This document shows, in pieces, positions 5,137 to 23,903 of a stretch of DNA of 64,000 nt. The stretch is taken from the NCBI GenBank assembly GCA_013334765.1, contig JAAXWW010000001.1:39816-103815 (forward strand). Reading direction: 5' to 3'. The notes under the pieces were generated by a model that saw only the letters and a list, made by a program, of their open reading frames with translations, was not told the DNA's origin and ran no database searches. Both the position numbers and the translations under genes were made by a program. Positions within the stretch are counted from its first letter, which is position 1; every line of letters begins with the position of its first letter. Source of the DNA: Candidatus Moraniibacteriota bacterium. Its GTDB lineage: Bacteria; Patescibacteriota; Minisyncoccia; Moranbacterales; UBA2206.

Positions 5137-6309
5137 CTACTTCTTGAAAATCTGAAGCGGAGAGCATGTTCCCTGACCGCATCTTAGTCTGATGCACATC
5201 TTATTTTCCAGAGAAAAAGAAGGTCCTTTCTTGAAGCTCCTCCCTTCGTCAAAAGAAACTTCTGCGAAGTAAGGGTTTAGGATGTAATTTCCTGGCTGAA
5301 GATCACAGACAACCGTTGCATAGCCATTTTCCAATTTCATGGGCAGGCTTTTCACGGGATCTTCATTTTTTTGATTAACATCCGATTTTGCTTTTTCGGC
5401 AGATGCTTTATCCGAAAGAGCCTGTTGCTCCTTTTGCCATCGATGATATTCATCGACAGTCATATTTTTCTGCGCTGCGGAAATCGCATCGCTATATTCA
5501 GCAGGAAGCTTTTTGCCTGGATTGGCCTTTTGCCATCCTAATGCTTCAGCCAATAATTGGTTATTAGCCGCTTCGGTCTGTTGTGATTGAACATCGCGGA
5601 TCTTGTTTATCAGCTGAGCTGTTGAACGCGGAGTGAAGCTGAGACTATTCAATCCGAGGAACTCCCTTGCTTGAGGAAATCCTATAGATACGCCGGATAG
5701 TATGTAAAACATCAGCGTAGCCGTTATTATCCATCGGAGCAAAACTTTGGACAATGACCATTTCCCAAGCAATGCTAATACTGTTGTTGTCATTAATACT
5801 ATCGTCATGACAACGCTGGAGCTGGCAAAAGCCTCCAGTCCGCATAGATAGTTTTGAAATATGACCAGGAAAAGCAATTGGATCGCTAATACCCACCTGA
5901 TCATGTCGAGGTATAATCTCGTTGCTGGATTGTCTAGGATCCCCGTTGCGGTTGCTGTTTTCGAACTGCCGAACAGCTGAAACGCTGCGCCTGAAAACTC
6001 GATAACTTCGCCGGCAATATGTACCTGCAGTGTCCTCCATGAAAAAACGAGACGCACTGCTGATGCGGCAACTACGGCCACGATGATAACCGATGACCAG
6101 CAAAACAACCTCGCCGATCCACCGATCATAAAGAAATGAAAGCTAGCAATAGTGGCCATTCCCAGTAGGGTTGCCATTGCTACAAAAAGCATTGCCCAAA
6201 ACAGTCTAGCTGTGAATCCCTTAAGCATGCTGCGCAGGGAATTAATCATATATCCAAACATAGCCTTCTCCTCAGAGATTCGCGTTAGGAGCGGAAAAGC
6301 TTTTTCCAC
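5137..6309 (-). CDS. polytopic membrane protein with hydrophilic C-terminal domain (hypothetical)
   Basis: 390 aa. Several hydrophobic helices in the N-terminal 230 aa, then a Q/A-rich linker and a Cys-containing C-terminal domain. Confidence 0.55.
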   Translation of the reverse strand: MEKAFPLLTRISEEKAMFGYMINSLRSMLKGFTARLFWAMLFVAMATLLGMATIASFHFFMIGGSARLFCWSSVIIVAVVAASAVRLVFSWRTLQVHIAGEVIEFSGAAFQLFGSSKTATATGILDNPATRLYLDMIRWVLAIQLLFLVIFQNYLCGLEAFASSSVVMTIVLMTTTVLALLGKWSLSKVLLRWIITATLMFYILSGVSIGFPQAREFLGLNSLSFTPRSTAQLINKIRDVQSQQTEAANNQLLAEALGWQKANPGKKLPAEYSDAISAAQKNMTVDEYHRWQKEQQALSDKASAEKAKSDVNQKNEDPVKSLPMKLENGYATVVCDLQPGNYILNPYFAEVSFDEGRSFKKGPSFSLENKMCIRLRCGQGTCSPLQIFKK

Positions 6310-15492: not shown

Positions 15493-15539
15493 CAGGGGTT
15501 TGTGTTTATTGAAAAATGGTTTTTGGGTTTCTATGAAAG

Positions 15540-15680
15540 AAGTCGAGCTAAGGCTCGGCGAAAGTCTCCTTCGCGACCATCAGCGGGCTTTGCCCGCGTG
15601 CCGTCGCTGTGATGAGACGAAGGCCTCCTTCGCGCCTTCCTAGCGGGCTTTGCCCGCTGGAAGCCGCTACGGCGGCTGAA
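15540..15680. repeat. tandemly duplicated ~60-bp structured spacer between tRNA-Pro and tRNA-Gly
   Basis: Two copies of the hairpin GCGGGC-TTT-GCCCGC (15583-15597 and 15643-15657). Each is preceded by a CTCCTTCGCG-containing hairpin (GCGAA..TTCGC / CGAAGG..CCTTCG). Confidence 0.5.
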
Positions 15681-15681
15681 A

Positions 15682-15756
15682 GCGGGTGTCGTATAGTGGC
15701 TATTATATCAGCCTTCCAAGCTGAGGAGGGGGGTTCGATTCCCCCTACCCGCTCCA
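15682..15756 (+). tRNA. tRNA-Gly (anticodon TCC), CCA encoded
   Basis: Acceptor GCGGGTG/TACCCGC. Anticodon stem TCAGC/GCTGA with loop CTTCCAA. T-arm GGGGG-TTCGATT-CCCCC. Discriminator T followed by CCA. Confidence 0.75.
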
Positions 15757-17510
15757 AGGACAATTTCTTGCCCCGAAACACCTAGAACAGATTGAAGAAT
15801 ATCTTGGGGCAACTTCAATTTAATATGAAGACGGAAAGGGATCATTTGATCCTTTTTTCGTTTCCCAGCGATGATGTCGGCATTCTCTACTGGTCGAGAA
15901 TATACAACGATTTCATCAATGAGAGAATGCAGTAGCGTGTAAGTATCAGCTCTGTTTTCTGCTATGTTGTCGAGAGTATGGATATATTTTTGAGAAAACA
16001 GCTCCAGAGTCTTTTCATAACCCTGCGAAAGTGAATTTTCGGAAATTCGGCGGTCAATTTCTTCAATATCTTTTTTATATTTTATTTCAACATCATTCAA
16101 TTCCTTATATCGCCTGCCAAGTTCTGTTCCATCTATTACGCTCAAAGAGTGTTGCTCTCTCAATCTCTCCTTACGATTTGGAAGAGCATTTATCAATTTA
16201 GCCATTCCTTCACGTTGCATGCTTAACTGCTTCAATGCGACTCTTGATGATTGCAGTTTTCTTTGATGATTATAGGTTGCAAGAGGATTTGCCAAAAGCC
16301 TTTTACTGAAGCCTACTATATACTCTTCTATTTCTTTAGCAGGCAGTGGTATAGTATGACAAGTTGTTGAATACTTGCTAGGGTTTTTCTTTCCGCACTT
16401 ATATGAATATGTGAATTTATTACTGCCTTTTTTAAGTTCCTTTCTATCGCCAACCCAGTGCATCATTCCGGTTTTTTCTTCAGGGTTGTGGCATGCGTCG
16501 CAAGTCAAAAGGCCACTAAGAAGATAGATGTGTCCACTTTTTGTTTTTTTCTTTTCGTGTTTGGAAGACTTCAACAAACGTTGCGTTTTTTCAAATGTTA
16601 AAGGGTCGATAATTATTGGGAATTGAAATTCTCCAAGTTTCCATTCTTCTTTTGAAAGTTGTTTGCCTTTTTTCTTCTTATCATAATAGTATTTTCCGAT
16701 ATAAATTTCGTCTTGCAAAATCAATCTTATTCTTTCGGGTCTCCAAAAATTGTGCGGATTTTTCTTTTTTGTTTCACCGCTTTTTTTCTTGTGCAAAATT
16801 GCAGAGGCTTCTGGCGAAGGGTTTCCTGCGGAAGTCAGATGAGCTGCAATTTCATATGCACTTTTTTTCTCATTCAAAAACATATTGAAAATAAGCCTTA
16901 CAATAACTGCTTCCTCTTCAAGAATTTCCAAGTGCTTGTCCTTATTTTTAATGTATCCAAATACTGCAAACGAACCCATTGGGATCCCACTTTTTATTGC
17001 TTGGTTTCTGCCATCCTGAGTGCGTTGCTTTATGGTCTCAACTTCAAGCTCTGCTATTATTCCGACAATGCCAAAAATTGCCTTACCAAAAGGTGTTGTG
17101 GTGTCTATGCTTTCATTTGCTGAAATAAATTTAACACCAATTTCATCAAAAAAATCAACGATATTCAAAAGGATTTTTAGTCTTCTGGCAAAACGATCTA
17201 TTTTATATACTGCTACAACATCAAATGGCCTGTTGTCTTTCGGTGCCATTGTTAAATCCTCCATGAGCTGTGCAAAGGCTGGTCTTTCTTCGATGGGAAT
17301 TGTTCCGCTAACTCCATCGTCAATATAGATATGCTTTTCTCCTGCAAGGCTCCAAACTCCACTGCCATCTTCAAGTTTACCTTTTGACTTAATAAGATTC
17401 AAAAGGGCTTCTTTTTGCATATCTAAGCCATATTTTTCAGCCTGTTCATCGGTTGATACTCTAATATAAAGAGCGACTCTTAGGCTTTCTGGATTTGTAT
17501 TTGTTTGCAT
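15708..17510 (-). CDS. large serine recombinase (phage-type serine integrase)
   Basis: N-terminal resolvase catalytic domain (RVALYIRVSTDEQ.., catalytic Ser context). A 600-aa protein with a Cys-containing recombinase/zinc-ribbon region. The 3' end overlaps tRNA-Gly by about 49 bp. Confidence 0.85.
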   Translation of the reverse strand: MQTNTNPESLRVALYIRVSTDEQAEKYGLDMQKEALLNLIKSKGKLEDGSGVWSLAGEKHIYIDDGVSGTIPIEERPAFAQLMEDLTMAPKDNRPFDVVAVYKIDRFARRLKILLNIVDFFDEIGVKFISANESIDTTTPFGKAIFGIVGIIAELEVETIKQRTQDGRNQAIKSGIPMGSFAVFGYIKNKDKHLEILEEEAVIVRLIFNMFLNEKKSAYEIAAHLTSAGNPSPEASAILHKKKSGETKKKNPHNFWRPERIRLILQDEIYIGKYYYDKKKKGKQLSKEEWKLGEFQFPIIIDPLTFEKTQRLLKSSKHEKKKTKSGHIYLLSGLLTCDACHNPEEKTGMMHWVGDRKELKKGSNKFTYSYKCGKKNPSKYSTTCHTIPLPAKEIEEYIVGFSKRLLANPLATYNHQRKLQSSRVALKQLSMQREGMAKLINALPNRKERLREQHSLSVIDGTELGRRYKELNDVEIKYKKDIEEIDRRISENSLSQGYEKTLELFSQKYIHTLDNIAENRADTYTLLHSLIDEIVVYSRPVENADIIAGKRKKDQMIPFRLHIKLKLPQDILQSVLGVSGQEIVLGAGRGNRTPLLSLEG

Positions 17511-17750
17511 AAAGTTATAACAAGTAAAAGGTACGAATAGGTATAAGTAACGGAGGGAGGCATTTTTTGTATTTATAGCTTAACCGCCTTTGCCTAAGAA
17601 ATTGAAAAATGAATATAAAAAACAGCCAAAAAGACTGACGGGATAAAGACTAAAATTTTATAGTTTTTCCAAAACATTCAATTACAACTAAAATATAAAC
17701 CTACTTTTAAAGTAAGACTTATCTTAGATAAATGCAAGACCCCACAGATC

Positions 17751-18374
17751 TTAATACTTTATGATTTTGTTAATGGCAGCAGAAGAATCATCAACACCTT
17801 TTAAATAAATTGAAAATTGATGAAATCCAGTGTTGGCATTTTTAATATATTCTCCCACAAAGTGCTTGCCGACATAAGCAGAATCCGCATTCGTAGCATT
17901 AGCAATATTTGGCTGTATCGTTGCTGATTTTTTGTCCGTATGAATAAAAATAAAAGCACTGCGTTCATTTTGCATATCATCTTTGATTGTTTGCCCCAAA
18001 GCTGTCATATCGTCAAAATTGAGATATTTAGGATCAATGACTATCCTTTCGCCAGTTCCGCCGTCGGGAATGCTCCATTTTTGAACCACTTCGTAAGGAA
18101 TTTTTTTGCTGGCCTGGGTTATAGGATTGCTGCTTTTATTATTGTTTGCTTGTGGCCGATTGGGTTGGCTTTTTGTTGCAGCTATAATTGAAGATATTAT
18201 TGGAATCCCAATCAAAATAACCAAAATTAGGACAAGCCAAGGCAGACAACCTTTTTTCTTTTTTATTACCACTTCCATTGGCTGCTGATTTTTTCCGGAA
18301 AGATCGCTTCCGCAATGTTTGCATTTGATTGCTTCGTCCTGAATTTCTTCAGAACAAAAAGAACACTTTTTCAT
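17751..18374 (-). CDS. zinc-ribbon membrane protein (hypothetical)
   Basis: N-terminal CxxC-x12-CxxC ribbon (CSFCSEE..CKHCGSD), one TM helix and a 140-aa extracytoplasmic domain. Confidence 0.5.
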   Translation of the reverse strand: MKKCSFCSEEIQDEAIKCKHCGSDLSGKNQQPMEVVIKKKKGCLPWLVLILVILIGIPIISSIIAATKSQPNRPQANNNKSSNPITQASKKIPYEVVQKWSIPDGGTGERIVIDPKYLNFDDMTALGQTIKDDMQNERSAFIFIHTDKKSATIQPNIANATNADSAYVGKHFVGEYIKNANTGFHQFSIYLKGVDDSSAAINKIIKY

Positions 18375-18933
18375 AGACTTTTCGTTTAATTTTTAAAGTG
18401 CTGGTCGGGATACACAAAACCCCGTGCCAGCTAGGTCTTGCGACCCTATATCCGTTTCCAGATATAGCCCAATCACGAGTTGCTGAACGCGGGGTTCAGT
18501 GTCGTGATTGGGTCTTGTATGCCATACCGTAAAATTTTACTTCTACGGGTTAGGCAAATTAAATTGTAACCTTATTATGCCTTATAACTGCCGAAAAGGC
18601 AAAATTTGGCTATTTTTTGACTGCTAAGAAAGGAAATGCTCTAATATGGGCAATCCTACCAAATTACTGATTAGCTCCCTTAAGGCCTAGTCAGGGAGTC
18701 TAGGAGTGAAAAACAGACGGTAATTTTTATCCAAACAAATAGTTTATTTTTGTCCGCTCGTGTCCGTTTATTTTTTTCCAAATCTGTCCCTCTTGATCCG
18801 TTTTTATTTTATACTAAATTAGGCTTATCTTGGCTCAACTCAGGGATTATTAGCACATTTTACTAAATTGAATTATTTTACTGTCCAAATGAACAAAGGA
18901 ACATAAAAAAATGATGTAAAACTGGATAAAAAT

Positions 18934-18980
18934 AGGGCGGAAGTTTTTTCTGACAACTCTGTCAAATTGACTTCCGCCCT
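18934..18980 (-). terminator. intrinsic terminator for the 19024..19467 gene (nested hairpin)
   Basis: On the - strand the 11-bp stem AGGGCGGAAGT/ACTTCCGCCCT, with an inner 5-bp stem TGACA/TGTCA, is followed by ATTTTTAT. It lies 44 nt downstream of the stop. Confidence 0.55.
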
Positions 18981-19023
18981 ATAATATTTACAAATATGAT
19001 GTCTGCTATACTGGCAACATCGT

Positions 19024-19467
19024 TTAGTCTTTGGATTTATCAAATAGAAAGTGGAGCAGCTGTTCATTTTCCTCCTCCATTGAACTGATTGCTACACTAA
19101 GGGGCTGTCTTTTTGGACCAAGATCTATAACAGGATTAACTGAACCATAAAAATAAAAACCTATATTATTATCAGACTTTTTCTTGCTAGCATCCTTTCT
19201 AAAATAAACCTCAAGACCTTCTTCTTCAATTTTGTGTTTTTTAGCAAAATTATCGAATGTCTTAATTATAAAATCAGAAAATTCCAGTTGAGTTATGCCC
19301 CCTTCTAAACTTATAACAAATCTTCTTCTAGTCTTAGGTTTAAGATTATCAGATGAAAAATTCACCAGTTCTTCGTTAGAACTATATTTTTCAATAGCTT
19401 CACTGGTATCATTTGGTTTTTTATTATCTAAATGCTTACTATTTCGACTGTGTTGCGTTTTTGCCAT
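19024..19467 (-). CDS. hypothetical protein
   Basis: 147-aa ORF, K/E-rich, no recognised motif. Confidence 0.45.
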   Translation of the reverse strand: MAKTQHSRNSKHLDNKKPNDTSEAIEKYSSNEELVNFSSDNLKPKTRRRFVISLEGGITQLEFSDFIIKTFDNFAKKHKIEEEGLEVYFRKDASKKKSDNNIGFYFYGSVNPVIDLGPKRQPLSVAISSMEEENEQLLHFLFDKSKD

Positions 19468-19543
19468 AAAAGTGACGATTTTATGCGATTTGATTATTAA
19501 CGCCTATACGGTGAATTTCTTTGTCTATATTGTAGCATATCAA

Positions 19544-19598
19544 GATTAAATTGTATTTTTCATTGATATTTATATTGTGGGGTAGAAATTTGCCGATC
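19544..19598. repeat. ~55-bp direct repeat, copy 1 (second copy at 21447..21500)
   Basis: AAGATTAAATTGTATTTTTCATTGATATTTATATTGTGGGGTAGAAATTTGCCG versus AAGACTAAATTGTATTTTTCATTGATATT-ATATTTCGGGGTAGGAATTTGCCG. Confidence 0.7.
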
Positions 19599-19761
19599 CA
19601 AAAATTTCTCATTTTGCAACCTAACGAAGCCTAACTTTTTTAATATAAAAATTCTATTTTAATTGTATTATGTCATACAACGTCAAGATATTATTGGAAT
19701 GTTGATTTTTTAGTATAGCTGTGCTTTATTAGATTAAGGTCTTGGTAAACACATTATAATA

Positions 19762-20550
19762 ATGTATAATAATAATATGGCAAAAGCGAAAAAAGAAACA
19801 AGAAAGAAATCTTTTAAATACGGAAAAAACTACCTTTCTAAGGTAATTTTGAGGTTGGATTTTGATAAAATAGAATTGGGATCACTCGAAAATTTTCATA
19901 ATGATGAGTTAAAGAAATTCTTTCCATTATTTGCTGAGAAAAAAGATCTTGAAATTGGTCTTTCGGGAGATTTAGTTTCTAATAAAATAAGTCAGACCAG
20001 AAATGAATCCGTATCCTATGTCTTTGAAAACTCGGAGAAAACGAAACGCTTTAGAGTTGGAGAAAGATATGTTTTTATTGAATATGACAAGTATAGTAAT
20101 TCCGAAGAATTATACAAAGATATAAAAGTAGTTATTGATAGATTTATTTTAACTTTTGGTGTAAAAACAATAAACAGGTTGGGATTAAGGTATATAAATG
20201 AGATAAAATTGAAAGAACCGAATGCTTTAGATTGGAAAAATTACATAAATAAAGATCTGCTAGGTGGTTTAAATTTTTCCAAAAATGAAATTCTTTCCCG
20301 TTCTTTAAGTCAGCTCGTTTTTAAAAAAGACAAGGGTGATATGTCTTTTACCTATGGAGTATTTAATAAAGAATTTCCAAGCGAGATAAACATTAAAGAG
20401 TTCATACTTGATTTTGATTGCCATTCAATCTTGCCTTTTGAGCTTTTAGAAGAAAACATTCTAAATAGAATAGAACTATATCATTCTCATATAGAGGACT
20501 TATTTGAAAAGTGTATAACGCAGAAATTTCGTGATTTTTTAAATAAATAA
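19762..20550 (+). CDS. hypothetical protein (island cargo)
   Basis: 262-aa ORF with a basic N-terminus and an internal GLRYIN segment. I half-recall this signature from an uncharacterised protein family but cannot confirm it. Confidence 0.5.
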   Translation: MYNNNMAKAKKETRKKSFKYGKNYLSKVILRLDFDKIELGSLENFHNDELKKFFPLFAEKKDLEIGLSGDLVSNKISQTRNESVSYVFENSEKTKRFRVGERYVFIEYDKYSNSEELYKDIKVVIDRFILTFGVKTINRLGLRYINEIKLKEPNALDWKNYINKDLLGGLNFSKNEILSRSLSQLVFKKDKGDMSFTYGVFNKEFPSEINIKEFILDFDCHSILPFELLEENILNRIELYHSHIEDLFEKCITQKFRDFLNK

Positions 20551-20563
20551 CTAGCTAGCTATT

Positions 20564-20761
20564 ATGTTAGGAAAATCATCTTCTGAAAATTACAGAGATA
20601 TCTTTGAAGATAAGGCTGATGAATACTCCAAAAAAGATAATTCTGAAACAAGGGATTTTTCTGGAACCATAAATTTATTTACATCTGGAACAAACAAAGA
20701 GAGGTATGTAATTAGAAAGGCTACTGTTGAAAAACATCTTTATGTTCGAAAGTCAAATTAA
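20564..20761 (+). CDS. small ORF (65 aa), overlaps the start of the next ORF in another frame; possibly the N-terminal part of a frameshifted gene
   Basis: ORF track only. It overlaps 20727..21374 by 35 nt (20727-20761), or 20 nt if the downstream gene starts at 20742. Confidence 0.3.
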   Translation: MLGKSSSENYRDIFEDKADEYSKKDNSETRDFSGTINLFTSGTNKERYVIRKATVEKHLYVRKSN

Positions 20762-21374
20762 GAAAAAGTATCAGATTTGTGGCATAAGAACTTGCCAGGG
20801 TGACATTCTTAGGGATGTCACTATTGCATTTGGGCTAGAATTGAGTGATAGCAGTGAGGGCGAAAGTGAAATTGAATTAGAACATAGGTATTATAACTAT
20901 GCAGTAGTATTGAGTCAGGACTGTGATTTAAGTAGTGATTATAATGAGAGAAATAAAAATGCAGAAATCAAGGAAAAAATAAAAAATAACGAACTGGAAG
21001 AAGAAAAAGCGATTATAAGCAATGATAAGTATTTGCCTGCTATTTTAATATGCCCAGCTTATTTATTATCTGATTTTGTAAACGGATCGCATATAACTTC
21101 TTGGAGTATGAATAGTGAGCTAAAAAACGAAAATAATCAAAAAAAGTTAAAAAGTAATAATGAATTTAAACGATATCATTACATAAGAGGCGATAGTGAT
21201 CTTGGGATACCCGAGTTAGTATTGGATTTCAAGCACTTTATGTCGGTGCCAAGGGATACTTTATATAAAATACATAATCAAGTTTATATAGCCACAATAA
21301 GCGAATTGTTCCGAGAGGAGTTGTCTCAGCGATTTTCAAACTATATTTCAAGAATAGGCTTACCAGAAATTTGA
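20727..21374 (+). CDS. hypothetical protein (island cargo)
   Basis: 215-aa ORF; alternative start at 20742 (MFESQ..). No recognised domain. Confidence 0.45.
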   Translation: MKNIFMFESQIKKKYQICGIRTCQGDILRDVTIAFGLELSDSSEGESEIELEHRYYNYAVVLSQDCDLSSDYNERNKNAEIKEKIKNNELEEEKAIISNDKYLPAILICPAYLLSDFVNGSHITSWSMNSELKNENNQKKLKSNNEFKRYHYIRGDSDLGIPELVLDFKHFMSVPRDTLYKIHNQVYIATISELFREELSQRFSNYISRIGLPEI

Positions 21375-21446
21375 GAGCTTGTTAGTTTCTGATTAAGTTA
21401 TTTGTGCCTATTCGCTGAATCTTCTTGTCTAAATCACAACAAATAA

Positions 21447-21500
21447 AGACTAAATTGTATTTTTCATTGATATTATATTTCGGGGTAGGAATTTGCCGCC
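21447..21500. repeat. ~55-bp direct repeat, copy 2
   Basis: See copy 1. It lies immediately upstream of the long palindrome. Confidence 0.7.
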
Positions 21501-21549
21501 CTCAGAAAACAAAAAACAGCCCTTAACGGGCTGTTTTTTGTTTTCTGAG
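21501..21549. terminator. 22-bp perfect inverted repeat / bidirectional terminator-like hairpin upstream of the R-M cassette
   Basis: CTCAGAAAACAAAAAACAGCCC-ttaac-GGGCTGTTTTTTGTTTTCTGAG. A degenerate direct copy lies at 23790..23830. Confidence 0.6.
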
Positions 21550-21748
21550 CGGCATCTATCTATGGCTGGGATACGGGGTCAAAATATGAGAAATAAAAAT
21601 GCGTTGGGTAATTCTGGCGGCAAAAGTCTCAATGATTGTAGGTTAGTTGAAAGATGCCTTTAATTGTGAATTTTTTGATTTTGATGATAAGATAAACATA
21701 GGAAATCATTATAAAAAGCATAGCTTATCCCTTTAGAAGAAAGATCAT

Positions 21749-22585
21749 ATGGCTAAAAAAACTCAATCAAAAAGATTAACGAATCAGCATAAAAAATCTC
21801 AAGGCGTGGTTGGTATATTTGGAAATGAAGCAAGGTCGCATGATATAACAGTTGGTAAGATTTCACATCTTGTAACCGAACAGCTTGAAAAGGAATTTCC
21901 TCGATTATCTTTTAGATATAGAACGGGTATAAAAAAGAAAGAAATAAACGAAGCCTTAAAGAAAGTTGATTCAGAATTAGGGCAAACCATTTTTGTATTA
22001 AATTCAAGCATTAAGCCTGATGGAGGAATAATAGAAGTGAAAGACGATAATGGTATTTGGAGAGTAGTACTCGTAACGGAAGCTAAACATCAAGGAAAAG
22101 ACATTGAAAATATCCAAAAAGGAAATCTGGTTGGCAAGAATAACGATCAAGATTTGATGGCTGCTGGCAATGCAATAGAAAGATCGCATAAAAACATATC
22201 AGAAATTGCCAACTTTATGCTGCATGAATCCCATTTTCCTTACATCTTATTTCTGGAAGGATCAAATTTTATTACTGAAACCATTTCAATTAAAAGACCT
22301 GACGGAAGAGCAGTTACCCTTGATTATAACTCAGGCATGCTGAATAGATTAGACAGATTGACTTCTGCGAATTATGGAATGCCAATTAATACCAATTTAT
22401 GCAAAAATAAATTTGTTAAGCATAAAGATAAAACAATTATGCTTCAAGCAGCTTCGATATATACACAAGGCAATGGAGGAAAATGGGATAAAAAAGAAAT
22501 GTTCGACATTATGGTGGAAACTTCAAAAGTCTCTCTTCAGGTACTGGGAAGTGAAATATTTAAACAAATAACCAAGCGCAAATAA
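21749..22585 (+). CDS. ecoRIR: type II restriction endonuclease, EcoRI family (predicted GAATTC specificity)
   Basis: 278 aa, alignable from memory along its whole length with R.EcoRI: SQGVVGIFG, LSFRYR, EINEALKK, SSIKPDGGIIEVKDD, EAKHQGKD (the PD..D/ExK active site), DQDLMAAGNAIERSHKNISEIANFML, SHFPY.LFLEGSNF, NSG.LNRLDRLT.ANYGMPIN, IMLQAASIYTQG. Confidence 0.85.
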   Translation: MAKKTQSKRLTNQHKKSQGVVGIFGNEARSHDITVGKISHLVTEQLEKEFPRLSFRYRTGIKKKEINEALKKVDSELGQTIFVLNSSIKPDGGIIEVKDDNGIWRVVLVTEAKHQGKDIENIQKGNLVGKNNDQDLMAAGNAIERSHKNISEIANFMLHESHFPYILFLEGSNFITETISIKRPDGRAVTLDYNSGMLNRLDRLTSANYGMPINTNLCKNKFVKHKDKTIMLQAASIYTQGNGGKWDKKEMFDIMVETSKVSLQVLGSEIFKQITKRK

Positions 22586-22622
22586 TCAAAACCAAGAGAT
22601 TTATTAATTTTTTAAATATAAT

Positions 22623-23723
22623 TTGATAATGGCAAGGAACGCAACAAACAAATTATTGCAAAAAGCTAAAGAGTCAAAGAGTGACGAGTTTTACACTCAA
22701 CTTTCAGATATAGAAAGCGAATTGCAATATTATAAAGATCATTTTAAAGGCAAGGTGGTTTTTTGTAATTGTGATGATCCTGGAACTAGCAACTTTTTTA
22801 AGTATTTTGCCTCAAACTTCAAAGAATTAGGACTTAAAAAATTAATATCTGCTTGTTATAGAAGACAAGAAAGAAATTTATTCAATACTAAAGAATATGA
22901 AAGCGGTTTTTTTTATGAATATTCAGGTGCTAAAGTCGAAAAAACTAAGCCAAGTTTAAATGAGGTTGTTCATTTTAAAGGGGACGGGGATTTCCGTAGC
23001 GCTGAAAGCATTGAGCTGCTGAAACGATCCGATATAGTTGTCACTAATCCGCCATTTTCATTATTCAGGGAATACGTAGAACAATTAATTAGATACGATA
23101 AGAAATTTTTGGTAATCGGTAATATTAATGCTATTACCTATAAAGAAATTTTTAAATTAATCAAGGGAAACAAAGCGTGGTTGGGAATAAATCTAGGTAG
23201 GGGAATTTCAGGTTTTATTGTGCCGGAACATTATGAGCTTTACGGTACAGAAGCTCGTATTGATAATCTTGGGAATAGGGTAGTTTCACCGAATAATTGT
23301 TTATGGCTAACAAATCTAGACACCCCCAAAAGGCATGAGGACATGACTCTTGCAAAAAGCTATTTTGGAAACGAAATTGAGTATCCTCGTTACGATAACT
23401 ATGATGGAATCAATGTGAATAAAACAAAAGACATTCCTTCGGATTATTCAGGTGTTATGGGTGTGCCTATAACCTTTTTGCATAAATACAATCCAGAACA
23501 GTTTGAAATAATCAAATTCAGAAAAGGAAATGATGAAAAGGATTTATCAATAAATGGAAAATGTCCATATTTTAGGATTCTAATCAAAAATAAGCGGATA
23601 CAGGAAAGTGAAAAAAAGAATCGCCGAGGTGAAAGGGAAATTGAGAGGTATCTTAAAAATCCTATTGAAATTACTGTAAGAGGTAATGCTTATGATTTTG
23701 AAGGTCCCTTATTGAGTTTGTAG
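22623..23723 (+). CDS. ecoRIM: N6-adenine DNA methyltransferase, M.EcoRI-like
   Basis: The N-terminus MARNATNKLL.KAK.SKSDEFYTQ, CNCDDP, SNFFKYFA.NFK.LGLKKLIS, DIVVTNPPFSLFREY (the NPPF motif), GRG.SGFIVPEHYELYGTEARID and KCPYFRILIKNKR all match my recollection of M.EcoRI. The probable start is the ATG at 22629. The gene lies about 40 bp downstream of R, on the same strand as in the EcoRI system. Confidence 0.8.
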   Translation: MIMARNATNKLLQKAKESKSDEFYTQLSDIESELQYYKDHFKGKVVFCNCDDPGTSNFFKYFASNFKELGLKKLISACYRRQERNLFNTKEYESGFFYEYSGAKVEKTKPSLNEVVHFKGDGDFRSAESIELLKRSDIVVTNPPFSLFREYVEQLIRYDKKFLVIGNINAITYKEIFKLIKGNKAWLGINLGRGISGFIVPEHYELYGTEARIDNLGNRVVSPNNCLWLTNLDTPKRHEDMTLAKSYFGNEIEYPRYDNYDGINVNKTKDIPSDYSGVMGVPITFLHKYNPEQFEIIKFRKGNDEKDLSINGKCPYFRILIKNKRIQESEKKNRRGEREIERYLKNPIEITVRGNAYDFEGPLLSL

Positions 23724-23798
23724 TCTGTCGGACAGCTTTTGTTGAAGAGGTTGGGTTCTAGTTTACCCTAACCGCATTAACTAACCAGCTCACAAAAC

Positions 23799-23827
23799 AA
23801 AAAACAGTCCTTTGAGGGCTGTTTTTC
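23799..23827 (+). terminator. intrinsic terminator after the methyltransferase gene; degenerate copy of the 21501 palindrome
   Basis: AAAAACAGTCC-tttga-GGGCTGTTTTT with one G-U pair. The left flank CTCACAAAACAAAAAACAG matches CTCAGAAAACAAAAAACAG. Confidence 0.6.
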
Positions 23828-23903
23828 ATTCTTTATTGACAGCGGCCTTCTTGAGTGATAATACTGAATCAGTTCCTGAACCCTTAAATGCGAGGAGGCA
23901 TAT

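What the first reader, a model, noticed from the sequence alone, without database searches (positions are those of the whole stretch)
19544..21549. Direct repeats bracket individual gene modules within the island (mosaic assembly)
A ~55-bp sequence (AAGAYTAAATTGTATTTTTCATTGATATT(T)ATATTKYGGGGTAGRAATTTGCCG) occurs at 19544-19598 and again at 21447-21500, enclosing the two-to-three unknown genes at 19762-21374. Immediately after the second copy lies a perfect 22-bp-arm palindrome (21501-21549), and a degenerate direct copy of it lies at 23790-23830. Together these bracket the R and M genes. Modules flanked by direct repeats suggest stepwise insertion or recombination-mediated shuffling of cassettes. 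Alternatively a promoter or terminator unit is duplicated in front of each operon.
Basis: seen in the sequence. Interest (0 to 1): 0.6.

Follow-up and report, generated by a model that had tools for sequence, protein, structure and literature searches.

The report
Duplicated island ends bracket defence cassettes
The repeats are real: they are duplicated copies of a mobile island's end piece and of the host's tRNA terminator, left behind as three foreign gene blocks were added one after another at a single tRNA-Gly gene in a tiny-genome (CPR) bacterium.

Summary
The 55-bp repeat is the best-kept part of a ~110-bp direct repeat. E1 is 19487-19596 and E2 is 21391-21499. They are 79% identical with a 24-nt exact core, and no other copy exists in 64 kb.

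E is the right-end module of a 5.7-kb island run by a large serine recombinase that inserts at tRNA 3' ends in CPR bacteria. E holds the promoter and leader of a conserved small gene, a core, and the 23-bp P half-site of attP. The mirror half-site P' lies against tRNA-Gly.

In five islands where both ends are visible, the predicted crossover dinucleotide is the same at both junctions (TC here). Two sister genomes supply the empty site.

- **E2** is the intact attR.
- **The perfect palindrome** is the host tRNA-Gly terminator.
- **E1** keeps the promoter but its half-site has decayed.

Between E1 and E2 sits a three-gene TIGR04255 cassette with no recombinase. Elsewhere this cassette is flanked by duplicates of whatever local sequence it sits in. 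The EcoRI-type R-M pair lies outside attR, between two copies of [tRNA-Gly 3' half + terminator].

How the ~100-bp duplications arise is unresolved: long target duplication or tandem-island recombination.

The parts
15682..15756 (+). tRNA-Gly(tcc). Its T-arm and acceptor 3' strand (15730-15752) form the B arm of attB/attL.
   Evidence: ARAGORN and Rfam. Identical to the tRNA-Gly of the island-free sister genomes up to ...CCCGCTC.
15753..15754 (.). attL crossover dinucleotide TC (inferred).
   Evidence: Symmetry centre of the 23-nt half-site register. Homology with the sisters' empty site ends here.
15755..15777 (-). P' half-site of attP (reads TTCGGGGCAAGAAATTGTCCTTG on the minus strand). It lies inside the 3' coding end of the recombinase gene.
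   Evidence: Weight-matrix score 32.6. It is the only such site at this end. The same arm abuts a tRNA in L008, L009, L013, L044, L045 and L046.
15708..17510 (-). Large serine recombinase gene (600 aa). The ORF runs through attL into the antisense of the tRNA.
   Evidence: Pfam Resolvase + Recombinase + Zn_ribbon_recom. 324 CPR homologues at E<1e-30.
17751..18374 (-). Zn-ribbon protein (207 aa), island cargo of unknown role.
   Evidence: Weak Pfam zinc-ribbon hits and PHROG hits of unknown function.
18433..18556 (-). LOOT RNA (Rfam RF03000) inside the island.
   Evidence: 79.9 bits against a gathering score of 46.4. Also present in the L009 and L013 islands.
19024..19467 (-). Conserved small island gene (147 aa; C-terminal motif SSxEExNxxLLHFLFxKSK). 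It is the gene next to the island's right end in the single-E islands.
   Evidence: Homologues sit next to E or the P arm in L008, L009, L012, L013 and L046; the L036 and L047 homologues are separated from the att-proximal E copy by the cassette.
19487..19598 (.). E1, the gene-adjacent copy. It has an intact extended -10 (TGCTACAAT, minus strand, 19529-19537), the 24-nt core (19547-19570) and a decayed P half-site (19576-19598, TGTGGGG...).
   Evidence: 81% identical (left half; BLAST 94% over a 71-nt stretch spanning left half and core) to the single copy in L008. P-arm score is 13.8-14.7 against 31-32.5 for E2. The -10 box is conserved in all five gene-adjacent copies aligned; the partial L047 copy also carries it.
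19599..21390 (+). Three-gene cassette with no recombinase: TIGR04255 protein (19762-20550), a 65-aa protein (20564-20761) and a ~210-aa protein (20742-21374).
   Evidence: NCBIfam TIGR04255. The same trio occurs in L034, L036, L047 and L050. The C-terminus of the third ORF is conserved, so the right edge lies just after its stop codon.
21391..21501 (.). E2, the att-proximal copy. Its -10 box is degenerate (TGTTGTGAT), it has the 24-nt core (21451-21474), and it has an intact P half-site (21479-21501, TTCGGGGTAGGAATTTGCCGCCC).
   Evidence: P-arm score 30.9-32.5; 15/23 identical in register to rc(P'). The promoter contrast is shown.
21502..21503 (.). attR crossover dinucleotide TC (inferred).
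   Evidence: Same dinucleotide as at attL. Joining 15752|TC|21504 rebuilds a sequence colinear with the sisters' empty site.
21501..21549 (.). Perfect palindrome. It is the B' side of attR and the upstream copy of the tRNA-Gly intrinsic (bidirectional) terminator.
   Evidence: Colinear with the sisters' terminator up to ...GTTTTCT. Hairpin at -43.5 kcal/mol on both strands.
21546..23731 (+). EcoRI-type R-M unit (R 21749-22585, M 22623-23723). It lies outside the serine-recombinase att sites and holds no mobility gene.
   Evidence: Pfam EcoRI and EcoRI_methylase. Full-length phmmer match to E. coli EcoRI, E 4e-134, roughly three-quarters identical by eye. Absent from the sisters.
23732..23793 (+). 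Decayed duplicate of tRNA-Gly from the anticodon stem to the 3' end (with a ~13-nt insertion).
   Evidence: Best forward match to tRNA-Gly in the whole window (score 32; median 15, sd 3.2). Colinear with the sisters.
23789..23826 (+). Second copy of the tRNA-Gly terminator, continuous with host DNA (…TTATTGACA…).
   Evidence: Terminator scan, fold at -16.1 kcal/mol, alignment to the sisters.

Best explanation
**What is shown.** The window comes from a Candidatus Moranbacteria (CPR) chromosome. Sister genomes carry tRNA-Pro, tRNA-Gly, a terminator and then host genes. This genome has 8 kb of low-GC DNA inserted there.

The ~110-bp repeat (E) is the right-end module of a 5.7-kb integrative island (15755-21501). 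The island belongs to a CPR-wide family driven by a large serine recombinase that inserts at the 3' end of tRNA genes. E has three parts:
- the promoter and leader (extended -10, TGnTAYAAT) of a conserved small gene that reads toward the recombinase;
- a 14-24-nt conserved core;
- the 23-bp P half-site of attP.

The inverted partner P' lies at the other end, inside the 3' end of the recombinase gene and against the tRNA. The two arms are symmetric about a dinucleotide, which is the same at both junctions (TC here, AC in three relatives).

E2 is the intact attR. The perfect palindrome that follows it is host DNA: the tRNA-Gly terminator. E1 keeps the promoter, but its half-site has decayed. E2 is the reverse. 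The EcoRI-type R-M pair is a separate insertion outside attR. It sits between two copies of [tRNA-Gly anticodon stem to 3' end + terminator], and the downstream tRNA part has decayed.

**What is inferred.**
1. The R-M unit came first, because its duplicated target is contiguous in the downstream copy.
2. The serine island then integrated at the TC just past the functional tRNA-Gly.
3. The TIGR04255 cassette, which has no recombinase, was inserted into the island's right end with duplication of ~110-130 bp of local sequence. Each copy then kept only the half still needed.

I favour the process described for R-M units as 'insertion with long target duplication' for both cassettes.
For: **Host and empty site**
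- Backbone genes and the recombinase hit place the window in Moranbacteria.
- L038 and L041 are syntenic and read ...CCCGC TC AGAG...terminator...TTATTGACA.
- The rebuilt attB is colinear with them.

**att model**
- P versus rc(P') is 15-18/23 identical in one fixed register in the window, L008, L009 and L013; P(>=obs) is <=0.0003 against random 23-mers.
- The central dinucleotide is identical at attL and attR in all four and in L046.
- P' abuts a tRNA in all seven examined islands whose tRNA-proximal end lies in the fetched DNA: Gly x2, Pro, Val, Lys, Ala, Leu.
- Only three half-sites exist in the island: P' at 32.4, E2 at 30.9, E1 at 13.8. Shuffles give 0.15 hits >=10.

**E as an end module**
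- There is a single copy at the far edge of L008, L009, L012, L013 and L046, directly upstream of small-gene homologues.
- The -10 box is TGCTA(C/T)AAT in the five gene-adjacent copies and degenerate in the orphan copies E2 and L036.
- No RNA structure is predicted on either strand.

**The cassette is an independent unit flanked by local duplicates**
- The trio occurs in L034 between unrelated 86-nt direct repeats at 92% identity.
- In L047 it sits between two E-left copies of that island's own type.
- In L036 it lies between the small gene and E.
- E1 and E2 are each other's closest relatives along their whole length.

**R-M**
- The tRNA relic is the best match in 64 kb.
- The direct repeat is 69/105 identical with a 33/38 hairpin part.
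- It meets the criteria for long target duplication in PMC2853133.
Against: - No experiment or read-level evidence shows excision or integration; the att sites are inferred from symmetry and comparison.
- Part of the arm identity is forced, because I anchored on TTCGGGG/CCCCGAA. Outside that anchor it is 8-11/16.
- The E1/E2 homology ends 3 nt from the predicted crossover, and the E1 junction (GCCGA-TC-CAA) resembles attL (CCCGC-TC-CAA). That fits a recombinase-made junction better than an arbitrary target duplication.
- The 24-nt core is perfectly identical amid 10-30% divergence on either side. That needs selection or gene conversion.
- The duplication around R-M covers the tRNA anticodon stem to the 3' end. 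This is also the classic footprint of integrase-mediated insertion (a caveat raised in PMC2853133).
- The mechanism of long target duplication is itself unknown.
- The L047 contig ends inside its downstream E copy, so that case is incomplete.
Confidence: 0.7

Rival explanations
1. Tandem accretion of two related serine-recombinase islands. An incoming circular island recombined through its attP with the resident attR (or attL). This gave [island A ... E1 = P_A-TC-P'_B][island B ... trio-E2 = P_B-TC-B']. The recombinase and small gene of island B were later deleted. E1 is then a fossil attP-like junction.
For: - E1/E2 homology stops 3 nt before the predicted crossover centre.
- The E1 junction GCCGA-TC-CAAAAATTTCT resembles attL CCCGC-TC-CAAGGACAATTTCT.
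- The window's small gene and E1-left belong to the L008/L046 lineage, whereas the trio is shared with the L036/L047 lineage.
- In L036 the trio lies between the small gene and E, as a B-type donor would require.
- E2 and L036-E share changes in the old -10 box.
Against: - The weight matrix finds no P'-like half-site right of E1.
- The 165-nt spacer shows no significant similarity to a recombinase 3' end (z = 1.2) or to the L036 spacer (z = 0.7).
- E2 is of the same sequence type as E1 and L008 in both halves, not of the L036/L047 type.
- This route needs three events (cassette gain, tandem integration, precise deletion) against one.
- It does not explain the unrelated 86-nt direct repeat around the same trio in L034, nor the R-M duplication.
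Confidence: 0.2
2. E is a reusable docking site. The island's serine recombinase (or host homologous recombination at the conserved core) captures and swaps cassettes lacking a recombinase at the island's right end. This would be an integron-like acquisition platform, and each capture would leave an extra E copy.
For: - The same cassette sits at the same relative place (between the small gene and the P arm) in three islands of two lineages.
- The breakpoint lies at the att centre.
- The core is perfectly conserved in both copies.
- Islands of this family carry very varied defence cargo.
Against: - Most cargo in relatives lies between the recombinase and the small gene, not at E.
- Only one cassette type has been seen at E.
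- The flanking copies are local duplicates rather than hybrid sites.
- The cassette also occurs with no E at all (L034, L050).
- There is no second half-site next to E1.
Confidence: 0.08
3. Ordinary regulatory duplication: the same promoter/terminator unit was placed in front of each operon (trio and R-M) and is kept for expression.
For: E contains a good extended -10 promoter, and the palindrome is a strong terminator.
Against: - The promoter faces away from the trio and R-M and drives the small gene.
- It is degenerate in E2.
- E2 is followed immediately by a -43.5 kcal/mol bidirectional hairpin that would block read-through into R-M.
- No further copies exist in 64 kb or in 185,579 species-representative genomes.
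- The second hairpin is host DNA present in the island-free sisters.
Confidence: 0.02

Closest known systems
Integrative elements of large serine recombinases (phage Bxb1, phiC31 and A118 integrases; SCCmec Ccr; XisF)
   Same: The protein has Resolvase + Recombinase + Zn-ribbon domains. The attP is about 48-50 bp, made of two imperfect inverted half-sites around a non-palindromic 2-bp crossover. There is no long common core, and attL and attR are hybrids.
   Different: attB overlaps the 3' end of tRNA genes (at least six different tRNAs). [quoted passage not shown] The P' arm lies inside the recombinase's own coding 3' end. The host is CPR, and the cargo is defence genes plus a LOOT RNA.
R-M gene units inserted 'with long target duplication' (Furuta, Abe & Kobayashi 2010, PMC2853133)
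   Same: An R+M unit of 2.2 kb has no mobility gene. It is flanked by a direct duplication longer than 30 bp that is single-copy in the empty genome. The TIGR04255 cassette shows the same pattern in three contexts.
   Different: The duplicated target here runs from the tRNA anticodon stem through the 3' end plus the terminator. That is also the footprint of integrase-mediated insertion. In one case the pattern applies to a non-R-M cassette and duplicates a functional att/promoter module.
tRNA-linked genomic islands of tyrosine integrases, and their tandem accretion
   Same: The tRNA gene is a hot spot and stays intact after insertion. Several foreign blocks are stacked at one tRNA, with a decayed tRNA 3' fragment at the far edge.
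   Different: No tyrosine integrase is present. For the 5.7-kb island the shared core is 2 bp, not tens of bp. Accretion in tyrosine-integrase islands is recalled from general knowledge and was not tested here.
Integron gene cassettes separated by attC sites
   Same: Promoter-less or self-contained cargo modules are separated by repeated non-coding elements next to a site-specific recombinase gene.
   Different: There is no IntI-type tyrosine recombinase. E has no hairpin or attC-like structure. The repeats are duplicates of local sequence, and only one cassette lies between E copies.

Membership tests
Large serine recombinase integrative element | Recombinase with an N-terminal resolvase catalytic domain, a recombinase domain and a zinc ribbon | tested here: met
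   Pfam PF00239 (6.7e-33) and PF07508 (1.9e-18). PF13408 is just under its cutoff. NCBIfam gives partial hits to XisF and CcrB/C.
Large serine recombinase integrative element | An attP of ~40-50 bp built from two imperfect inverted half-sites | tested here: met
   The 23-nt arms are 15-18/23 identical in register in four islands. A weight-matrix scan finds exactly one P' and one strong P in the island.
Large serine recombinase integrative element | The same 2-bp crossover dinucleotide at attL and attR, with no long direct repeat | tested here: met
   TC/TC in the window and L046; AC/AC in L008, L009 and L013.
Large serine recombinase integrative element | An uninterrupted attB in a related genome | tested here: met
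   L038 and L041. The rebuilt attB is colinear with them.
Large serine recombinase integrative element | Demonstrated integration or excision activity | not testable with these tools
   This needs reads spanning attP/attB junctions or a recombination assay.
Insertion with long target duplication (criteria of PMC2853133) | The insert holds R and M, is shorter than 20 kb, and has no mobility gene | tested here: met
   The unit at 21546-23731 holds only R and M.
Insertion with long target duplication (criteria of PMC2853133) | A flanking direct duplication longer than 30 bp that is single-copy in the empty genome | tested here: met
   A direct repeat of about 91-101 nt, 69/105 identical. The sisters have one copy.
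Insertion with long target duplication (criteria of PMC2853133) | Not explained by site-specific integration into a tRNA | tested here: inconclusive
   The duplication begins at the tRNA anticodon stem. The source paper flags this as typical of integrases. No integrase is present now.
Integron / attC cassette array | An IntI tyrosine recombinase and attC sites that fold as imperfect hairpins | tested here: not met
   Only a serine recombinase is present. E has 0 predicted conserved pairs on either strand.
Intrinsic (rho-independent) terminator (the palindrome and its copy) | A GC-containing stem followed by a T run, placed at the end of a transcription unit | tested here: met
   The scan hits 23800-23826. 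Folds are -43.5 and -16.1 kcal/mol. In the sisters the homologous hairpin directly follows tRNA-Gly. Termination itself was not tested.
Sigma-70 extended -10 promoter (left half of E) | A TGnTATAAT-like box at a suitable distance upstream of a gene, conserved across relatives | tested here: met
   TGCTACAAT or TGCTATAAT is present in all five gene-adjacent copies and degenerate in the two orphan copies. The transcription start was not testable.
Known structured RNA family (E as an RNA gene) | A match to an Rfam model or a conserved secondary structure | tested here: not met
   The only hits are sub-threshold and driven by the hairpin. There is no consensus structure.

The most novel reading that the evidence does not exclude
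The right end of these CPR islands (E: core plus P half-site) may work as a cassette-docking site. The serine recombinase, or recombination at the conserved core, would capture defence cassettes that lack a recombinase there and leave an extra E copy each time. That would be an integron-like acquisition platform run by a serine recombinase, sitting at tRNA genes of bacteria with minimal genomes.
Probability: 0.1. Interest if true: 0.8.

Novelty: new variant of a known kind. Interest (0 to 1): 0.5.

Why it matters
- **A worked example of island assembly.** It shows base by base how a defence island is built in a CPR bacterium. At least three independent acquisitions occurred at one tRNA-Gly, and each left a readable scar.
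- **A new recombinase family.** It defines a widespread CPR family of large serine recombinases. I predict their ~50-bp attP, their tRNA-3'-end attB sites and their crossover dinucleotides. This target choice is contrary to the usual rule for serine integrases, and the predictions can be tested directly in vitro. Such enzymes are sought as genome-integration tools.
- **A wider reach for an unexplained process.** The poorly understood 'insertion with long target duplication' would extend from R-M systems to another cassette and to CPR.
- **A natural case of subfunctionalisation.** A duplicated regulatory/att module has split its roles: one copy keeps the promoter, the other keeps the recombination site.
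- **A context for the orphan LOOT RNA.** It now has a genomic setting that could make its function testable.

Tried and rejected
1. **Public genomes.** I scanned 185,579 species-representative genomes for the 21-mer core.
2. **Viral contigs.** An IUPAC E pattern gave nothing there. A recombinase-based scan gave one family member (L016) with no E-like DNA.
3. **E-right as a tRNA copy.** My first idea was that E-right is an inverted copy of the tRNA 3' half. Shuffle tests did not support it. The correct partner turned out to be the P' arm just past the tRNA.
4. **A second recombinase remnant.** I looked for one right of E1. Results were not significant (z = 1.2) and no half-site was found.
5. 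**Spacer homology with L036 or L034.** Not significant.
6. **Displaced tRNA fragments in L008 and L009.** None were found. This is expected once the crossover is placed at the tRNA's extreme 3' end.
7. **Cassette function.**
   - PADLOC and PHROGs gave no hits.
   - The best PDB sequence hit was BH3703 at E = 0.19.
   - The single-sequence model of the ~210-aa protein was unusable (pLDDT 32).
8. **GAATTC avoidance as a sign of R-M activity.** None was seen (29 observed, about 27 expected).
9. **E as a structured RNA.** Rejected.
Full report
**1. The observation**

The 24-mer TAAATTGTATTTTTCATTGATATT occurs exactly twice in the 64-kb window, at 19547 and 21451. No further match appears with up to three mismatches, and none is expected by chance.

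It spans 19487-19596 versus 21391-21499 at 88/111 = 79% identity. The left half is 70% identical and the right half 90%. The right edge is sharp, after TTTGCCG.

The palindrome at 21501-21549 has perfect 22-nt arms. It folds at -43.5 kcal/mol on either strand, with z about -11. Its relative at 23789-23826 is 33/38 identical. An independent assembly, L001, shows the same arrangement.

**2. Context**

The repeats lie in a low-GC block (about 33% against 47% for the host) that starts right after tRNA-Pro and tRNA-Gly. The backbone encodes trigger factor, iPGM, RNase Y, RpoB/RpoC, FtsK and EF-G. The recombinase is 100% identical to a Candidatus Moranbacteria MAG protein, so the host is a CPR bacterium.

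The genes in the block, in order, are:
- a 600-aa large serine recombinase;
- a Zn-ribbon protein;
- a LOOT RNA;
- a 147-aa small gene;
- a TIGR04255 protein plus two small partners;
- EcoRI-type R and M.

**3. Related islands show what E is**

The recombinase has hundreds of CPR homologues. The closest relative, L008 (68% identical), has one copy of E followed by a similar A/T-tract hairpin. This sits at the far edge of its island.

An IUPAC pattern built from the invariant columns pulled further copies out of metagenomes: L012, L013, and the contig already fetched as L009/L010. L046 has a variant copy.

In these islands E lies directly upstream of a homologue of the 147-aa gene, which has the C-terminal motif SSxEExNxxLLHFLFxKSK. 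On that strand E carries TGCTACAAT or TGCTATAAT, an extended -10 box. E has no conserved RNA structure and no credible Rfam match.

**4. The att model**

In all seven examined islands whose tRNA-proximal end lies in the fetched DNA, the 3' end of the recombinase gene abuts a tRNA. The tRNAs are Gly twice, Pro, Val, Lys, Ala and Leu. L016 also has a tRNA-Lys just past its recombinase gene, but no half-site was detected there.

The sequence just past the tRNA (...ATTT(C)TTGCCCCGAA) is the reverse complement of the right part of E (TTCGGGG(Y)A...). In one fixed register of 23-nt arms, P and rc(P') are 15-18/23 identical in the window (E2), L008, L009 and L013.

The dinucleotide at the symmetry centre is the same at both junctions of each island. 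It is TC/TC in the window and L046, and AC/AC in L008, L009 and L013. A weight matrix built from the confirmed arms finds only three sites in the island. These are P' (15755, score 32.4), E2's P arm (21479, score 30.9) and a decayed one in E1 (19576, score 13.8, TGTGGGG...).

This is the anatomy expected of an attP of about 50 bp for a large serine recombinase. The crossover falls at the extreme 3' end of the tRNA.

**5. The empty site**

Two sister genomes, L038 and L041, are syntenic with the window. The flanking 202-aa protein is 83-84% identical. Both carry tRNA-Pro, tRNA-Gly, a terminator and host genes, with no island.

Homology on the left ends at ...CCCGC|TC. Joining 15752 + TC + 21504 onward rebuilds a sequence colinear with the sisters up to ...GTTTTCT at 21545. 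The serine island proper is therefore 15755-21501. E2 is its attR. The perfect palindrome is the B' side, that is, the tRNA-Gly terminator.

**6. The R-M unit**

R and M lie outside attR. Just past the M stop codon there is a decayed forward copy of tRNA-Gly, running from the anticodon stem to the 3' end. It is the best match to tRNA-Gly in the whole window. It is followed by the second hairpin and then by host DNA, all colinear with the sisters.

R-M is therefore bracketed by a duplication of about 100 nt of [tRNA-Gly 3' part + terminator], 69/105 identical. In the downstream copy this target is contiguous. The duplication must therefore predate the serine island, which now splits the upstream copy.

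The R protein gives a full-length match to E. coli EcoRI (E 4e-134, roughly three-quarters identical by eye). Only the coding DNA resembles enterobacterial plasmids, at 70-72%. The unit meets the published criteria for 'insertion with long target duplication'. The source paper warns, however, that duplications of the tRNA anticodon loop to the 3' end are also typical of integrases (PMC2853133).

**7. The E1/E2 duplication**

The two copies have decayed in complementary ways:
- E1 has an intact promoter half (81% identical to L008 over the left half; BLAST 94% over a 71-nt stretch spanning left half and core) and a decayed P arm.
- E2 has a degenerate -10 box and an intact P arm.

Between them lies the TIGR04255 trio. 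This is a self-contained unit found in several other contexts:
- **L034**: no island, next to Fic and MazE, bracketed by an unrelated 86-nt direct repeat at 92% identity.
- **L036**: between a small-gene homologue and an E copy whose P arm is followed by TC and a terminator.
- **L047**: the closest trio, at 71% identity, lying between two E-left copies.
- **L050**: after a tRNA and its terminator.

The C-terminus of the third ORF is conserved, so the cassette ends just after its stop codon.

E1 and E2 are each other's nearest relatives in both halves. The copies flanking the trio in L047 and L036 are of those islands' own sequence type. In every case, then, the cassette is flanked by duplicates of local sequence. 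I therefore favour one insertion event that duplicated about 110-130 bp of the island's end, followed by loss of the unneeded half in each copy.

**8. The main rival**

The main rival is tandem integration of two related islands followed by deletion.

In its favour:
- E1/E2 homology ends 3 nt from the crossover centre.
- The E1 junction resembles attL.
- The small gene and the trio belong to different lineages.

Against it:
- There is no P' remnant or recombinase remnant.
- E2 is of the local sequence type.
- It does not account for the direct repeats in L034 or around R-M.

An integron-like docking model remains possible but thinly supported. The idea of a 'promoter/terminator in front of each operon' is contradicted by orientation, by decay, and by the hairpin directly after E2.

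**9. Comparison and novelty**

The phenomena themselves are known kinds: islands at tRNA genes, serine-recombinase att sites, and R-M insertion with long target duplication. Three things are new.
- A CPR-wide serine-recombinase family whose attB overlaps tRNA 3' ends. [quoted passage not shown] I found no paper in the held library that describes such CPR islands.
- A P' arm that lies inside the recombinase's own coding end.
- A duplicated att/promoter module that has split its two functions between the copies.

**10. Limits**

No activity data exist. The cassette's function is unknown: the fold hits are weak and there are no hits in the defence-system or phage-family libraries. The mechanism that produces the ~100-bp duplications is unresolved.

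Noticed in passing
window 18433-18556 (-); L009 3929-4048; L013 1492-1622: A LOOT RNA (Rfam RF03000) lies inside the serine-recombinase island and in two related islands, well above the gathering score. From memory, this sRNA has no known function and is known mainly from metagenomes. It may be a regular component of this CPR island family.
   Followed up: partly
window 15708-15777: The recombinase ORF contains the P' half-site, which encodes ..SGQEIVL. Once integrated, the ORF reads on through attL into the antisense of the tRNA, so the C-terminal ~16 residues depend on the integration state. The same overlap with a tRNA is seen in L008, L009/L010, L013, L044, L045 and L046.
   Followed up: partly
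window 15753-15756 versus L038 9541-9545: With the island inserted, tRNA-Gly ends ...CCCGCTCCA, an encoded CCA. In the island-free sisters it ends ...CCCGCTCAG. The island's P' arm therefore supplies the terminal CA of the tRNA.
   Followed up: no
window 21749-23610: The R gene product gives a full-length, near-gapless match to E. coli EcoRI (roughly three-quarters identical by eye). The R-M coding DNA is 70-72% identical to small Klebsiella and E. coli plasmids. This is a striking inter-phylum spread of the EcoRI gene pair into a CPR genome. GAATTC is not depleted in the host DNA.
   Followed up: partly
L034 8032-8111, 9397-9482, 11599-11759: In a Parcubacteria MAG, the same TIGR04255 trio (plus a MazE-like gene) is bracketed by an 86-nt direct repeat (92% identical) that contains a terminator hairpin. 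The downstream copy is preceded by an 80-nt segment whose other copy lies upstream of a Fic gene, as if Fic had split a ~160-nt element. There is no Rfam match at the gathering score. L034 also has a group I intron at 5218-5493.
   Followed up: partly
window 21501-21549 versus L038 9540-9600: The tRNA-Gly terminator is a 12-bp stem in the sister genomes and in the downstream copy. In the upstream copy it is a perfect 22-bp-arm palindrome, extendable to about 27 bp with GCCGC/GCGGC. Something has 'perfected' this inverted repeat; template switching is one possibility.
   Followed up: no
L008 7584-7689 and 7699-7804; L009 2500-2783: Two repeats inside related islands remain unexplained. L008 has a tandem pair of 106-nt units at 76% identity. 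L009 has five copies of a ~45-nt A/T-rich unit (ATTTTTATCCCACCATTTTTT...) near its E end.
   Followed up: no
window 15494-15681: The spacer between tRNA-Pro and tRNA-Gly is GC-rich and carries repeated hairpin-like units (…GCGGGCTTTGCCCGC…, …GCCGCTACGGCGGC…). It is about 90% conserved in sister L038 and much shorter in L041.
   Followed up: no
L009, L044, L045 (islands of the same recombinase family): Cargo in relatives is almost entirely defence-related. It includes Tsp45I R-M, a PDDEXK protein, DUF8370/8371 and SLFN/AlbA; a type I R-M with AbiTii; and Dcm, Vsr, HNH and a KAP NTPase. An HTH_17/MerR-like gene often sits next to the recombinase and could be an excision factor.
   Followed up: no
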